A stretch of 63,501 nucleotides of DNA, the filler included, from Kipferlia bialata (lineage: Eukaryota): assembly GCA_003568945.1 (NCBI GenBank). It is 3 parts of 3 records of this genome, joined end to end, with 100 filler letters (N's around TTAATTAATTAA, not from the genome) between each part and the next. Parts side by side here need not be neighbours in the genome. Positions count along the whole stretch, not along the records: positions 1 to 21,129 come from BDIP01000338.1; positions 21,230 to 42,351 come from BDIP01000339.1; positions 42,452 to 63,501 come from BDIP01000341.1. The stretch is one strand, 5' to 3'. The number at the start of each line of letters is the position of its first letter. Positions within the stretch are counted from its first letter, which is position 1. Positions 97-60,300 of this stretch are shown one piece after another. The notes below the pieces were generated by a model. That model made no database searches. It was not told the origin of the DNA and was given only the letters and a program-made list of their open reading frames with translations. The position numbers and the translations under genes were made by a program.

Positions 97-159
97 ACCC
101 AGTCACCGGCAAGGAGTGCAGACAGGTATTGTAGTACATACATCCACACATATAGCTAG

Positions 160-202
<43 letters not shown>

Positions 203-271
203 AGAGGCAGAGAGACCCAGTCACCGGCAAGGAGTGCAGACAGGTAATTATATTCAATCTAGTGTATATAG

Positions 272-316
<45 letters not shown>

Positions 317-359
317 CCCAGTCACTGGCAAGGAGTGCAGACAGGTATAGAGGGATATG

Positions 360-412
<53 letters not shown>

Positions 413-54914: not shown

Positions 54915-56587
54915 CTACACCCATGCGTGTGTGGGTATAGGACCATGGACAGAGGCCGAGGGGGCAGTGCGGACACCCTGGCAGTGAGTGGATGTATGTA
55001 TATGTATATATATACTACACAGTATGTCCACTAACCTCCAGCGGCTCCTGGTTGTTCTTCCTGAGTCTGTTGCTGTACCTGAGCACAACGTCATCTGGGG
55101 GGTGAGAGAATGAGTGGGAACACTGTTCACATACGCGACATAGTGACAGAGAGAGTGCCTCACTCTGGATGGTGGATGGATTGATGGGAATATTGACATA
55201 GAAGGTGTCTGATAGATCCCGAGAGTGAATATCACTACCCCACCTGGCCACTTGCTCCCTCTCTTCGACCTCTTCCACCTACCCCAGGCCCCACTGCTAG
55301 ATCCATACACAACGGCATCTAGGAAGCCCTGGTGTCATTGGGATATGATATATACATATCATGACGTATACAAACTACACGTACCATGAGGGGGTTAGTG
55401 AATGCCTGTGCCAGGTCCAAGTACTGGTTGGAGAAGTCAGGCACAGTGGACTGGAGGAGTCTGGGGGTCAGGGATGATATATATTTATATATATATACTT
55501 GCATATATATACTGACTGTGGACTGGAGGAGCCTGGGGGTGGGAGGTAGATGTTGCATACTGATACTCACAAGACAGGCCTAAGGGGAGTATATATCTGG
55601 GTGTGAATACAATAGAGATGCCACCCACCTGTTGACACATGGTGCTGTCCAGCATATGACAAAGGCTAGCAGGTAGAGGGACAGCTTCCTGGCAACCTGG
55701 GGGTGAGGGGGTCATTATAATAGATCTTTATGGGAAGAGACCCACAGGGTAAGAGAAAGATTCAAGATATCTGTTAGTACACAGATCTAGCACCCGCGTT
55801 ATATGCAGCAATACTAGAGAGACACCACCCCTCACCCTAGTGTTGTACTCCTGCCTCTCCCCACCCATGTTGACTCTCCTCAATAGCACCACAACCACAA
55901 TGTATGTGGCTGCATTGTACAGGAACACCCCGTACAGCTCATAGTAGAACAGGGTCTGGCGCCACACACAGCCCTGGGGTCAAAGGGTGTAGAGAGAGAG
56001 AGAGAGGGAGGGGGAGAGAGAGAGAGAGCTCATAGTATAACAGAGTCTGGCGCACCACACAGCCCTGGGGGTGGGGTACTGGAGATGTGGTGTATGGATT
56101 TGTCAGGCAACATGTATATTGTGACTATCATACATATATACATATACATCCACTTACTGCACTACCTGTGGGAAGTACTCCAGGTCACACTCCACCCAGC
56201 ACCAGAGGGTGGAGTAGCCAAAGCCCTGCTGGGCGTAGATGTAGGCTGGGGGTGAGGCCGGATACTCTATATTTAACGAGGGGAAGAGGGGACATGAATA
56301 TACATATACATATGGGTACCTGCTGGGAAGAGAGGTACCACATACATGAACAGACCCAGCCTGCGGATCAGCTTCTTGTCCTGCTGGCCTCTCCTGGAGG
56401 GGTGAGAGGAATCATAGGGCAACGGATATGGATGAATACACATTGACTAGGCACATAGTGAGGTATATATAAGTAGATCTACCTCTTTGCGAGAGGGGAG
56501 GAGAACACGAATATCCTGATGAGGTATGTGGATATGGCAGAGGTGCCCAGCACAGCCACGGCCTCGAAGTAGTACTGCTGCACACCC
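54915..56587 (-). CDS. GPCR of the cAMP-receptor-like family (Dicty_CAR / GCR1 / GPR157-like), multi-exon; TM1-2 exons not found
   Basis: GVQQYYFEAVAVLGTSAISTYLIRIF (TM3), LGLFMYVVPLFPA, GFGYSTLWCWVE (WCW motif), WRQTLFYYELYGVFLYNAATYIVVVVLL, VARKLSLYLLAFVICWTAPCVNR (TM6), QAFTNPLMGFLDAVVYG (TM7, cf. PLQGFLNAxVYG). Confidence 0.85.
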
Positions 56588-57066
56588 TAGCAGTCAGGTG
56601 GAAGGAGGAGAGGGATAGGAGAGAGAGAGAGAGGGGGGGGGGGGGGGGGGGGAGGAAAAAGGGGGGGGGAGTGTAGTATATAATAACAATGCACAGCATT
56701 AAGCGAGAGGGGGAGGGGGGGGGGGTGCTGGAAGTGCGTACAGAGTGAAAGCTATATGGAATAGTATATCAAACGTACTGTGTATCACATACTCTCTGCC
56801 ACTGCACACCGCAGAGGCACACTGCGTACAGAGGCCCGCGGACATGACCAGAGGAGCCTGTAAGCCAGGTAAGCTATCCTGTTGGCCGCTGTGTAGAGAT
56901 GTAGGCGAAGAGATGCCTTGCAAGGTGATTGTCAAGTTGACAAGTCCCAGGTTCAGTTCCCATCAGGGTCGTTTTACTATTCCATCGGTCTCCTTTCTAA
57001 TCAGTCCCCTTCACCCCACTGTGACATATATATCCTTCCCACTCGCCTTGGGAGCACATCTGAGCC

Positions 57067-57322
57067 ATGGCGTGTGTGCGTAATGCTGCCGCTCTGTGTG
57101 TGTGGTGTGTGGTGTGTGTGTGCCTGACCCTGGTACATGCCCAGTCTGACACATCCGATGAGGACTACAGGACAAGGCCCACAGAGAGGTAGGGGGTGTA
57201 TGCAGCAGGTTATGCAAGAGATGTACTTGCAAGCAATGCTTGGGGTGTGGGTCTGGTGTTGGCTGCTGCAATGGTGGTCTAATTACATAATTCGCTGGTG
57301 GTATCCGATTGCCCTATCCTGG

Positions 57323-57368
<46 letters not shown>

Positions 57369-60300
57369 AGCCCTGGAGTGCCCTCCACTACCCCTCCTCC
57401 ACATTCCTCTCTCTCTATCTCTCTCTCTCTCTCTCCCTATGTCTCTCTCTCTCTATCCTCTCTCTCTCTCTATACCCTAGGCGTGCCCTCCACTACCCCT
57501 CTTCTACCTTCAACGAGGCCGTGTGTGTGTGGATGAACACCCTAGGCGTGGCCCCAGACCTAGACCTCTGGGTGGACTATGCACTCAACCTCGGCCTGAT
57601 AGAGGAGGTACATACATCTCTCTCTCTCTGTCTCGCCCCTGTGTCGCTTAGTCCCTCCTTCTTATATTAGGAGGAGATCTCCCCCCCTATGATGCTCTCT
57701 CTCTCTCCCCCTACGTCTGTCTCACATTAGGAGGAGATCTCCCCCACCTACATGCTGTCTCTGATGGACGAAGATGTGGTGTCCCTCAACCCCTCCTTCT
57801 CCCTCTTCTTCAGTCCATCCTTCGGCATACCAGAGCTGTCATTCGACCAGGAGGTCGGCGGGGAGGAGGTATATATATATATATGTATAGATGTTTTTGT
57901 AGCGTGTATATGTTACTCATTCGACCAGGAGGTCGGCAGGGAGGAGGTACATATATGTATATATATATATATATATTATGAATGTAGTCAAGCAAAGACG
58001 GATATATACCTTCTGTATAGTAGTGTATATGTGCCTCACCCCCAGGGTCTTCTGTCGATGACCCAGTCCGACGGGGTACTCTACCCCTTAGTCACAGACA
58101 TAGACACTGAGACAGAGACAGAGACAGAGACAGACACAGAGACAGAGACAGAGACAGAAACTGTGGATGATGCTGACACTGTCATATCCTCTGACTGGCT
58201 AGACCCTTTGTTCAGCCTGACATCCACCATACCAGTCTACCACAGAGACGGAGAGGCAACCACGCACACGCCAATTGTACGTGCATGACGTCTGTACTGT
58301 ATATTCGTGTATTTCCACCTCCATATATATATTTGTATGTATATGGGTGTGTGGGTATACATACCTCACTATCAGGCTGTCCCCGTAGCTGCCACGACCC
58401 CTGTGCTCTATGTCAACAGGGACTGGCTGGACGAGCACCCAGAGATAGAGATACCAAGGTATTCTATAAATCATTATATACAAATATATATATATATATT
58501 ACATATGTATACATATATTACTAAGCTGAGACTGGTTGGATGAACACCCAGAGATAGAGATACCCAGGTAGTGTATGAATGGGTGGTTACTCATCACATA
58601 TCTATTTTTATACCTCGACTCATCTTAACATGGCTCCCAGGGAGTACCAGGGTTTTCGCCATTCATTGATGTTGATATACCACTATCCCCACACCCAGCT
58701 GGGATGACCTCGTGTGCTATACGACTGCTCTGAGTATCCATAACACATTGGGTTTTTCATTTCATTGCTTCTCACACCCAGCACGTGGGATGACCTCCGT
58801 ATAGTGGCAGACTATGCACGGACAGAGGCAGGGGGGGAGTGGGACACAGGTAATGCCACTCGTCGTGACAAGATATTTACAATGGAGTGGCTATATATAT
58901 ATATATGTGTGTGTGTGTTTCCCCTCTACCCCCAGGCCTGTGCTCCACCTTCCTGGATAACATGTATACAATGTAGTATCGCTCTATATCTCAATATATA
59001 ATCTCTGATATGTACCCTACTTACCCCAGGCCTGTGCTCCACCTTCCTGGACAACATATATTCAATGAGTAGCCCTATATATATACATATATATACACGT
59101 GTGTGTGTATCACCTCTACCCCCAGGCCTGTGCTCCACCTTCCTTGATAACATGATGCATGACGATAGTGAGTCTGTGGAGAGTGCGGCCATGGTGGCAG
59201 CCGGGTATGTAAACATATGTGTGGTAATGCTTATGTGGAATATTTGTAAAAGGCTATATTTAGTAATACATTCTGTGGAGAGTGCGGCCATGGTGGCAGC
59301 AGGGTATGGATACACTGTACACATTGTAAATGTAAATATATAGAATCATCCACATATACTTGTCTACTACATTTAGTGACTGGGTCTGTGGAGAGTGCGG
59401 CCATGGTGGCAGCCGGGTATGGATACATAGTATTTATAGTATATACATCTTTATTAGTATTACTGATAGATGTGTTTGTATATATAGTTACTGGGTCTGT
59501 GGAGAGTGCGGCCATGGTGGCAGCGGGGTACGTGTATACATGTGTGCACGTGTATTGTTCTCTTAGTGTACACTTACTCACTCCGATAGTGGCTGCCTCC
59601 AGGATCCAGTACATATATATATGTTGAAAAGTATACATATACGAATATATGTATGTGTCCTGACTCCAGGTATGACTGGATGGTGGCTGCCTCCAAGATC
59701 CAGTATGAGGGTGCAGCACAGGGGCTCTACATAGACCCTCTGGTCACGGACAGGCTCAAGTTCATGTCAGAGACTGAGGTATGGAAGCTATAGTAGTGTA
59801 TCACGATAGTGTATGTGCATTGTAGTAACTTGCAGGCCTTCTCGAGCTCCTGGCTGTCGATGCAGGCTATGTTCATGGACGATGACAACAACAGATCATA
59901 TACAGAGGACACGTGCCCAGAGGAGCTAGGTTGGTGTATAGTATATATAATCTATATATTATTCACACAGAGGATACATGCCCAGAGGAGCTAGGTATAT
60001 ACTATATAAATATACTCATATATGCACTGTGGGTGCACTCACACACTATGTAGTTCATACTGTATACTATACACTGACGACTAGGCACGTATGCTCTGTC
60101 CAAGTTTGTGAAGGGCAAGACCTGCCCCATGTACCTGGGGTCATCCAGTGCAGAGATACACTTCGGACAGGTACTGGGTCCTTATACCTACATTTCTAGG
60201 ACCTAATACTCCTCCAAGTTTGGTTTCATTGTAGGATATATGGCTACCTCTTGATCCTCTCTCTCCCTCATCCTAGGCCTATGCCGCCAATGTGTGCAAG

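What the first reader, a model, noticed from the sequence alone, without database searches (positions are those of the whole stretch)
97..60000. Pervasive, polarized 'echo' half-exons: introns are built from repeated copies of the flanking exon ends with their splice sites
Seen in sequence: most short exons in most genes have 1-5 partial copies in the neighbouring introns, with a strict polarity. Copies of [branch+AG+exon 5' part] lie UPSTREAM of the real exon and decay into (TA)n without a donor (6080-6415 x4; 14340-14700; 18440-18830 ccccag|gccaaggagcatgcccag x4; 58930-59130). Copies of [exon 3' part+GT] lie DOWNSTREAM without an acceptor (7095-7520 gtgactgggcagacattgcagagag|gt; 11430-11950 caagcccaaggacatacccacttgtgagag|gt x5; 29860-30375; 37295-37525; 52315-52512; 59170-59530). 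The same holds on minus-strand genes (39350-39530, 50310-50645). Only the true exon has both sites. Inference: a microsatellite-linked local duplication process expands introns and fills them with perfect decoy splice sites, so the spliceosome must skip valid-looking proximal AGs and distal GTs, implying strict exon definition or recursive splicing. I know of no standard feature class for this.
Basis: partly seen in the sequence, partly recalled or inferred. Interest (0 to 1): 0.88.

Follow-up and report, generated by a model that had tools for sequence, protein, structure and literature searches.

The report
Retired half-exons stacked inside protist introns
In the free-living protist Kipferlia bialata, a third to a half of the exons examined have spare half-copies with working-looking splice sites in the neighbouring introns; the messenger RNA skips them where tested, yet they differ from the real exons mostly by silent changes, so they are likely leftovers of once-working gene versions, probably captured from other alleles during DNA repair.

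Summary
Real, and stranger than reported. The window is Kipferlia bialata (Fornicata). In three annotated genes, 53 of 109 exons have half-exon copies in adjacent introns. 5' halves lie upstream, 3' halves downstream, and each unit adds about 104 bp of intron. Over 1.1 kb, a separately assembled DNA contig confirms the copies and an RNA contig skips them.

New here: the copies are not plain decaying duplicates. 159 of 218 differences from the exon fall at third codon positions (dN/dS 0.11; neutral copies give about 0.4 in the same pipeline). Echo-to-echo pairs give 0.12, and five further genes replicate it. Echo splice signals fit the consensus but are mostly not copies of their own exon's signals, and the intron flanks are near saturation.

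Best reading (0.5): exon ends that worked in diverged alleles were stacked by aborted inter-homologue repair, then silenced by exon definition. K. bialata is listed with Dmc1 and Pol theta but no Rad51 or Ku70. No diverged allele was seen in this isolate. Polarity itself follows from geometry. The scan noted junction echoes before in sea urchins, with a near-neutral silent share. The single-locus precedent is human F7 intron 7.

The parts
782..20420 (+). PPIP5K/Vip1-type gene (P0003, 5' end outside the contig): 63 annotated exons; 35 of 62 carry echoes once 5605-5634 is treated as an echo
96..650 (+). Six donor echoes of an exon that lies beyond the contig edge; the exon end seen in RNA matches none of the six exactly
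   Evidence: (six copies) compared by eye with the RNA loose end
1013..1042 (+). Acceptor echo of exon 1108-1159; has AG and an internal GTATGT, skipped in RNA
1234..1272 (+). Donor echo of exon 1108-1159, skipped in RNA
1608..1638 (+). Acceptor echo of exon 1722-1783, skipped in RNA
1900..2129 (+). One donor echo and two acceptor echoes in the 505-nt intron; the RNA contig runs from the exon ending at 1783 straight into the exon at 2289
   Evidence: loose end
4756..5032 (+). Three acceptor echoes of exon 5093-5165 with branch points different from the true one
5603..5636 (+). Donor echo of exon 5454-5500; annotated in GenBank as a 30-nt in-frame exon, not tested by RNA
6083..6320 (+). Three acceptor echoes of exon 6388-6514
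7194..7520 (+). Four donor echoes of exon 7073-7119
9604..9877 (+). Three acceptor echoes of exon 9964-10061 with the same distal end
11524..11949 (+). Four donor echoes of exon 11390-11468; all five variable sites shared by the four are synonymous
14253..14578 (+). Four acceptor echoes of exon 14664-14760
18447..18710 (+). Three acceptor echoes of exon 18796-18842; two spacers nearly identical (recent re-duplication)
27646..38294 (+). Hypothetical protein KIPB_002155 gene (P0004): 38 exons, 16 with echoes (e.g. 29986-30374, 37390-37523)
39015..42090 (-). Predicted membrane-protein gene with donor and acceptor echoes (e.g. 39343-39413)
   Evidence: own model
49159..51234 (-). Predicted gene; three acceptor echoes at 50392-50640 of exon 50145-50337
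   Evidence: own model
51437..53617 (+). Actin-family (Arp2-like) gene (P0001): 9 exons, donor echoes 52397-52512, acceptor echo 52798-52826
54921..56586 (-). Predicted membrane-protein gene with two acceptor echoes
   Evidence: own model
57145..63339 (+). Predicted gene with 16 echo hits, incl. acceptor echoes 58936-59057 and donor echoes 59272-59527 around exon 59126-59204
   Evidence: own model

Best explanation
The echoes are silent half-exons inside introns that were likely working exon ends, each with its own splice site, in diverged alleles of the same gene, and were probably stacked in tandem by aborted repair between homologous chromosomes. SHOWN: a ~105-bp unit (half-exon of 62 nt or less, plus splice site, plus intron spacer); skipping in mRNA over the stretch tested; protein-preserving differences; splice signals that fit the consensus but differ from the true exon's. 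INFERRED: (1) A break falls in an exon. (2) One end invades the homologue with Dmc1; only the exon is similar enough to pair. (3) About 100 nt are copied across the splice site into the homologue's different intron. (4) With no homology for the second end, Pol theta joins it to the other broken end, so the new allele's exon end becomes live and the old end is retired into the intron. Invasion by the other end gives upstream acceptor echoes. (5) Unequal exchange between arrays adds units. (6) Exon definition ignores half-exons, and selection removes events with both sites or with short spacers. (7) Retired copies then decay neutrally (about 3% so far), and later inbreeding or loss of heterozygosity leaves the locus homozygous.
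For: Coding signature: 159 of 218 differences at codon position 3, 152 synonymous and 66 not, dN/dS 0.11. One echo per exon side, bootstrap 0.106 (0.065-0.167, 63 sides). Neutral copies through the same pipeline give 0.38-0.43. Echo-echo pairs give 0.12 (70/259 synonymous, 29/922 non-synonymous, 43 pairs). Non-CpG 0-fold/4-fold ratio 0.15. Replicate in 5 more genes: 53 of 73 at position 3, ratio 0.12. Splice signals: 33 of 41 AG-intact echoes have a branch motif at -7 to -9 (true sites 91 of 106; other intronic YAG 28 of 598), yet 21 of 29 use a different 5-mer and 184 of 410 bases differ; neutral simulation keeps at most 19. Donor +3..+6 differ at 70 of 160 bases but score 1.41 against 1.75 for true sites and -0.03 simulated. 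Recent decay: amino-acid changes are no more conservative than random, and 11 of 15 gaps shift frame. Array growth: 18 of 52 pairs in an array share a distal end, against 12% at random. Toolkit: PMC8516963 Supplementary Data 2 lists Dmc1, PolQ, Spo11 and Msh2 but no Rad51A or Ku70 for K. bialata. Dmc1-type residues tolerate mismatched donors (PMC6719624 section 17). The genome paper suggests diploidy from k-mers.
Against: No diverged allele is visible in the DNA contigs over four exons at 80% likeness, and no Kipferlia relative was found in metagenomes, so the donor haplotypes are unseen. Flanks are far more diverged than synonymous sites: only 11 of 93 are alignable, where 87-100% would be at 25% substitution. 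This needs introns that turn over several times faster than synonymous sites. Synonymous changes lean GC-to-AT from exon to echo, 66:41 (p = 0.02), where two working alleles should be symmetric. Branch motif retention was lower in the replicate (6 of 13). The 3 echoes of the actin-family gene gave 1 synonymous and 3 non-synonymous changes, and the 22 weakest hits gave dN/dS 0.26. The model needs haplotypes about 20-25% apart at silent sites. Described Pol theta tandem duplications are about 25 and 300 kb, not 0.1 kb.
Confidence: 0.5

Rival explanations
1. Living spare parts: the echoes are old and kept functional by selection, because recombination through the direct repeat regularly deletes one unit and promotes an echo to exon end (for example as break repair without Ku-dependent end joining), or because minor transcripts use them.
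For: Saturated flanks with low dN and intact splice motifs fit old, conserved elements. Synonymous divergence is flat across flank-similarity classes. Ku70 is absent.
Against: Amino-acid changes are not conservative and include a stop. 11 of 15 gaps shift frame. AG is lost in 8 of 52 acceptor echoes, against about 5.6% expected (p = 0.008). The RNA contig shows no echo letters (contigs hide minor forms). By my own reasoning, pop-out frequent enough to be selected would homogenise or remove the copies unless diversity is already very high.
Confidence: 0.17
2. Old neutral duplicates whose exon part alone is refreshed by gene conversion from polymorphic live exons (DNA- or cDNA-templated).
For: Similarity often stops at the splice dinucleotide. 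20 echoes have no difference, against 10 expected. Flank and exon divergence are uncorrelated (rho -0.06).
Against: Conversion limited to the exon part cannot keep a different but valid branch point in 33 of 41 acceptors. Without allelic diversity it predicts dN/dS of 0.5 or more (own derivation).
Confidence: 0.15
3. Error-prone rewriting: the new live copy is made from the sister chromatid by very sloppy synthesis, and only products with silent changes and valid splice sites survive; the echo is the unaltered old copy.
For: It would explain silent differences and scrambled flanks without unseen alleles. PolQ is present.
Against: It needs about 20% error per base, so almost all events would be lethal (own estimate). 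It predicts a linear history, but at 28 synonymous sites a nearer echo differs while a farther one equals the exon.
Confidence: 0.07
4. Plain neutral tandem duplication on one chromatid, driven by microsatellite slippage.
For: It explains polarity and junction-centring. A few arrays are clean recent tandems. There is a weak microsatellite excess.
Against: It predicts pN/pS of about 0.4; observed 0.11, and 0.12 between echoes. It predicts copied splice signals and alignable flanks; neither holds.
Confidence: 0.05
5. Assembly artefact that stacks alleles or strains.
For: The differences look allelic. The assembly is short-read and fragmented, and the DNA run may be its source.
Against: A separately assembled contig spans 700-1635, with four echoes, no differences and depth 434, equal to other long contigs (420-458). 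98% of 977 sampled 31-mers of 5400-14700 are in the run. The junction between intron and mid-exon exists in no single allele, so it must come from reads.
Confidence: 0.03

Closest known systems
Human F7 intron 7 37-bp VNTR (PMC1557585; abstract and outline read)
   Same: A repeat unit spans the exon-intron boundary; downstream donor pseudo-sites stay silent and the most upstream donor is used.
   Different: F7 is one locus, donor side only, with pseudo-sites identical to the authentic site. Here a third to a half of exons are affected, on both sides, units are about 105 bp, splice signals differ, and differences are protein-preserving.
Pol theta-dependent tandem duplication after failed homologous repair (PMC13031629 abstract; PMC7407515 passages; one-sided invasion seen only as a reference title in PMC4888836)
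   Same: Head-to-tail duplication by synthesis followed by end joining; K. bialata is listed with PolQ and without Ku70 or Rad51A.
   Different: Described events are about 25-300 kb (10-1000 bp in rice). Copies that differ like working alleles are not described in what I read. Here units are about 0.1 kb and differ like alleles.
Intron gain by tandem duplication of an AG|GT-containing exon segment (recalled; also named in scan note e1-9869788)
   Same: Local duplication that changes exon-intron structure without changing the protein.
   Different: No new intron is made; existing introns grow, and the duplicated segment includes a true junction.
Tandemly duplicated, mutually exclusive exons (recalled)
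   Same: Low dN/dS between the copies, valid splice signals, diverged introns.
   Different: Echoes never cover a whole exon (at most 83%, 0 of 103), carry one site only, and are absent from the RNA contig.
Silent gene-conversion cassettes such as trypanosome VSG or Neisseria pilS (recalled)
   Same: Unexpressed partial coding copies with a coding signature.
   Different: Here they sit inside introns of housekeeping genes (PPIP5K, Arp2-like), carry splice sites, and often have frameshifts.

Membership tests
Junction-spanning minisatellite (F7 IVS7 type) | First unit spans an exon-intron boundary | tested here: met
Junction-spanning minisatellite (F7 IVS7 type) | Pseudo-sites silent in mRNA | tested here: met
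   four junctions only, contigs only
Junction-spanning minisatellite (F7 IVS7 type) | Near-identical head-to-tail units including the intronic part | tested here: not met
   11 of 93 flanks alignable; 18 of 197 spacer pairs
Junction-spanning minisatellite (F7 IVS7 type) | Copy number varies between alleles | not testable with these tools
   one sample only
Mutually exclusive duplicated exons | Whole exon with both splice sites | tested here: not met
   at most 83% of the exon; 6 incidental both-site candidates
Mutually exclusive duplicated exons | Purifying selection between copies | tested here: met
   dN/dS 0.11
Mutually exclusive duplicated exons | Copies found in mRNA | tested here: inconclusive
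   absent from the main RNA contig; minor forms invisible; 5605-5634 untested
Recursive splicing ratchet points | AG immediately followed by a donor (AG|GTR) | tested here: not met
   0 of 41
Intron gain by tandem duplication | New donor and acceptor created inside the duplicated exon segment and used | tested here: not met
   RNA uses the annotated junctions; echoes lie in existing introns
Pol theta-dependent tandem duplication after aborted HR | PolQ present, canonical NHEJ absent | tested here: met
   read from PMC8516963 Supplementary Data 2; not re-searched by me
Pol theta-dependent tandem duplication after aborted HR | Junction microhomology or templated insertions | not testable with these tools
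   the donor template beyond the junction is unknown
Pol theta-dependent tandem duplication after aborted HR | A diverged homologue as template | tested here: inconclusive
   none seen at four exons of this isolate; none in metagenomes

The most novel reading that the evidence does not exclude
Kipferlia keeps working spare half-exons in its introns: each echo is a selected, swappable exon end with its own splice site, promoted into the gene by recombination through the direct repeat. Genes would then renew their exon ends and introns piece by piece from a built-in stack.
Probability: 0.17. Interest if true: 0.93.

Novelty: new variant of a known kind. Interest (0 to 1): 0.78.

Why it matters
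If the best reading holds, one mostly homozygous genome preserves pieces of many vanished alleles. That would be direct evidence of recombination between highly diverged homologues in a free-living fornicate, a group whose sexuality rests largely on gene inventories (own knowledge). It would also tie a genome feature to the loss of Rad51 and Ku in this lineage. Echo units account for roughly 45% of intron length in the three annotated genes (103 x 104 bp of 23.5 kb), so this is a major route of intron growth here. The arrays are natural competition assays: a reduced spliceosome (87 of 174 proteins, PMC6679479) working on ~100-nt introns picks the longest intron, which points to exon definition where intron definition is expected. 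In practice, echoes mislead gene finders: GenBank includes one as an exon, and my own predictor called 31 extra exons in the three annotated genes, mostly over echoes.

Tried and rejected
No whole genome was held, so there is no genome-wide count; all statistics come from 8 genes in this window. Reads were laid on 700-1805 only (1.1 of 63.5 kb), as contigs, so minor splice forms, lariats and SNP-level heterozygosity stay open. No listed run is on record as RNA. X2 is a guess, although it shows GT..AG joints and its word share (0.13) equals the share of words inside true exons (0.129). The point where the RNA contig ends could not decide whether 5605-5634 is included. Metagenome scans found no Kipferlia relative (none; 45 actin-family loci at 54% identity or less, used only as a repeat control). 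The representative-protein search never ran, so five gene models are my own predictions.

Rejected: whole-exon duplication followed by deletion (echo-bearing exons are not enriched for lengths divisible by 3: 11 of 53 against 13 of 50; no full-length echo). CpG mutability as the cause of the silent bias. Detection bias. Pseudo-replication. A faster exon lineage (echo-echo pairs). Recursive splicing. A clean two-haplotype hybrid is not favoured: per-echo dispersion is only mild (chi2 117 on 93 df). Non-synonymous changes show no gradient with distance from the splice site.

Ten literature searches found no description of this feature in Kipferlia. The genome paper has 0 hits for 'duplicat' or 'heterozyg'; its supplements were not read, and most subscription papers are outside the library.
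Full report
ORGANISM AND GENES. An exon at 52877-53107 matches an actin-family protein of Kipferlia bialata at 100% (GIQ81238.1). 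Two more exons retrieve K. bialata proteins P0003 and P0004. Their contig lengths (21,129, 21,122 and 21,050) fit the three blocks between the N-linkers in the window. Spliced mapping gave 63, 38 and 9 exons, all with GT-AG introns. I treated the annotated 30-nt exon 5605-5634 as an echo, which leaves 109 exons. The echo-free chains align without inserts to actin and to the Vip1/PPIP5K phosphatase domain. A branch motif YTNAY sits 7-9 nt before the exon in 91 of 106 introns, like the fused branch-acceptor of other metamonads (PMC6679479 passages). The published draft is a short-read SPAdes assembly with 124,912 introns and a k-mer hint of diploidy (PMC5874029, parts 1-3 of 6 read).

OBSERVATION. 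Aligning each exon to its adjacent introns gave 118 hits in 212 pairs, against 23 in 1,090 distant pairs. There were 59 upstream 5' halves, 43 downstream 3' halves, 14 internal fragments, 2 cross-hits and no downstream 5' half. Among the 103 hits scoring 26 or more, the exon part is 13-62 nt and never the whole exon. The period has median 108 (75-154) for donors and 105 (58-194) for acceptors. Intron length is 123 + 104 x echoes (r = 0.90, 105 introns), and 53 of 109 exons have an echo. For a replicate I predicted five more genes with a simple model that recovers 104 of 109 known exons. I removed 14 predicted micro- or terminal exons and set 2 by hand. The result was 32 hits, 21 of 66 exons affected, none reversed.

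REAL DNA, SKIPPED IN RNA. On 700-1805, one DNA contig spans 700-1635 with no differences at depth 434, like other long contigs of the run (420-458). One 4,939-nt contig of the RNA-like run joins 870/1108, 1159/1367 and 1423/1722 with GT..AG ends and continues into the exon at 2289. It therefore skips echoes at 1013, 1234, 1502, 1608, 1900, 2020 and 2103. No other letters were listed at 80% likeness. Limits: contigs only, one sample, and the DNA run may be the source of the assembly.

POLARITY IS GEOMETRY, SPACING IS NOT. With 72-nt exons and 92-nt echo-free introns, 59% of random ~105-bp duplications cross one junction and 4% are purely intronic, so no targeting is needed. But 32% should carry more than 62 exon nt (observed 0 of 103) and 37% a spacer under 50 nt (observed 8 of 102). 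In 10 introns with both types, donor echoes always precede acceptor echoes. AG is lost in 8 of 52 acceptor echoes (p = 0.008 against 5.6%) and GT in 3 of 43. I infer a filter that keeps only copies the spliceosome ignores, as exon definition would.

THE UNEXPECTED PART: CODING SIGNATURE. In the 94 echoes scoring 30 or more (22 weaker hits and 2 cross-hits left out), 159 of 218 differences are at codon position 3, with 152 synonymous and 66 not, dN/dS 0.11. The weaker hits give 0.26, and the three actin-gene echoes give 1 synonymous to 3 non-synonymous. A copy that is dead from birth beside a perfectly constrained exon should give about 0.5; simulated through the same aligner it gives 0.38-0.43. 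The result survives collapsing (140:58; bootstrap 0.065-0.167) and CpG removal (0.15, p = 5e-11 against 0.5), and it replicates (51:22, ratio 0.12). Decisively, it holds between two silent copies (0.12, 43 pairs) and for changes where a nearer echo differs while a farther one equals the exon (28:8).

THE UNEXPECTED PART: SPLICE SIGNALS. 33 of 41 AG-intact echoes have a correctly spaced branch motif (other intronic YAG: 28 of 598; replicate 6 of 13). Yet 21 of 29 differ in 5-mer from their own exon, and 45% of bases at -12..-3 differ; neutral decay of that size keeps at most 19. Donor +3..+6 behave alike. Beyond the motifs the flanks are mostly unalignable (11 of 93). So each echo looks like a working exon end from a diverged version of the same gene.

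SIGNS OF DECAY. The echoes also look recently dead: amino-acid changes are no more conservative than random (BLOSUM -0.47 against -0.59, p = 0.33), and 11 of 15 gaps shift frame.

MECHANISM (INFERRED). A duplication made between two diverged homologues has two formerly working copies at birth. A break in an exon, one-ended invasion of the homologue at the only alignable sequence, about 100 nt of synthesis into a foreign intron, and end joining to the other end give exactly a donor echo. Invasion by the other end gives an acceptor echo. Shared distal ends (18 of 52 pairs against 12%) indicate later growth by unequal exchange. PMC8516963 (passages; Supplementary Data 2 rows; file 1 unreadable) lists Dmc1, PolQ, Spo11 and Msh2 but no Rad51A or Ku70 in K. 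bialata. PMC6719624 (abstract and section 17) reports tolerance of diverged donors by Dmc1-type residues. PMC13031629 (abstract) and PMC7407515 (passages) describe duplications from error-prone break repair. Against: no diverged allele in this isolate, flanks about three times more diverged than silent sites, and a 66:41 GC-to-AT lean. I put this at 0.5. Ongoing selection as spare parts gets 0.17, conversion-refreshed old copies 0.15, error-prone rewriting 0.07, plain neutral duplication 0.05 and artefact 0.03.

COMPARISON AND NOVELTY. The form has a single-locus precedent in human F7 intron 7 (PMC1557585, abstract). Unchecked scan notes describe junction echoes in sea-urchin genes and one other gene; there the silent share (43 of 107) fitted neutral decay, unlike 70% here. 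Ten searches, listed under Tried and rejected, found no account of the feature in Kipferlia, nor of junction copies that carry allele-like constraint. It works like a junction-spanning tandem duplication, but it fails the test of near-identical units and is not a set of alternative exons or ratchet points. Verdict: a new variant of a known kind with an unexplained and strong signature; interest 0.78.

Noticed in passing
window 782-20420 (P0003 residues 84-257 and 747-1201): The PPIP5K/Vip1 protein matches the start of the histidine phosphatase domain twice, with two RHxDR motifs: an old internal duplication of the domain.
   Followed up: no
window 5605-5634: The GenBank model includes a 30-nt echo as an exon, giving a 10-residue tandem repeat; either an exonised echo or an annotation error.
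   Followed up: partly
window 21782-22741 (+), 23784-24773 (-), 25390-26220 (-): Three intronless ORFs that look like paralogues by eye (shared motifs near both ends); only the first has Pfam kelch hits. They have no echoes.
   Followed up: partly
window 9719-9738, 13284-13302, 36449-36490, 11650-11684: Echoes bracketed by an AG and a donor-like GT that could act as micro-exons; 36449-36490 is 42 nt and in frame.
   Followed up: partly
10 introns of P0003 and P0004 (e.g. 13217-13283): The last donor echo and the first acceptor echo bracket a 67-217 nt intron-like core that could be spliced as a nested intron.
   Followed up: no
three annotated genes: CpG is depleted about threefold in both coding and intron DNA (o/e 0.34 and 0.33), and CpG sites differ more often between echo and exon; a hint of cytosine methylation.
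   Followed up: no
window 42624-47886 (+): A predicted large Thr/Ser-rich membrane-anchored protein with a 1.6-kb exon and short introns; only 1 of 16 exons has a scored echo, so echo load varies strongly between genes.
   Followed up: no
window 38430-38610: Two degenerate tRNA-like stretches in an intergenic region (seen by eye, not run through a tRNA finder).
   Followed up: no
window 14781-14896, 21130-21229, 42352-42451: A scaffold gap and two N-linkers; the window joins three contigs. The echo at 14917-14978 lies just after the gap and is less secure.
   Followed up: yes
acceptor echoes at 4267, 9604, 14250, 16260: Four acceptor echoes lost AG by the same AG-to-AT change, although G-to-T is rare elsewhere (8 of 218).
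   Followed up: partly
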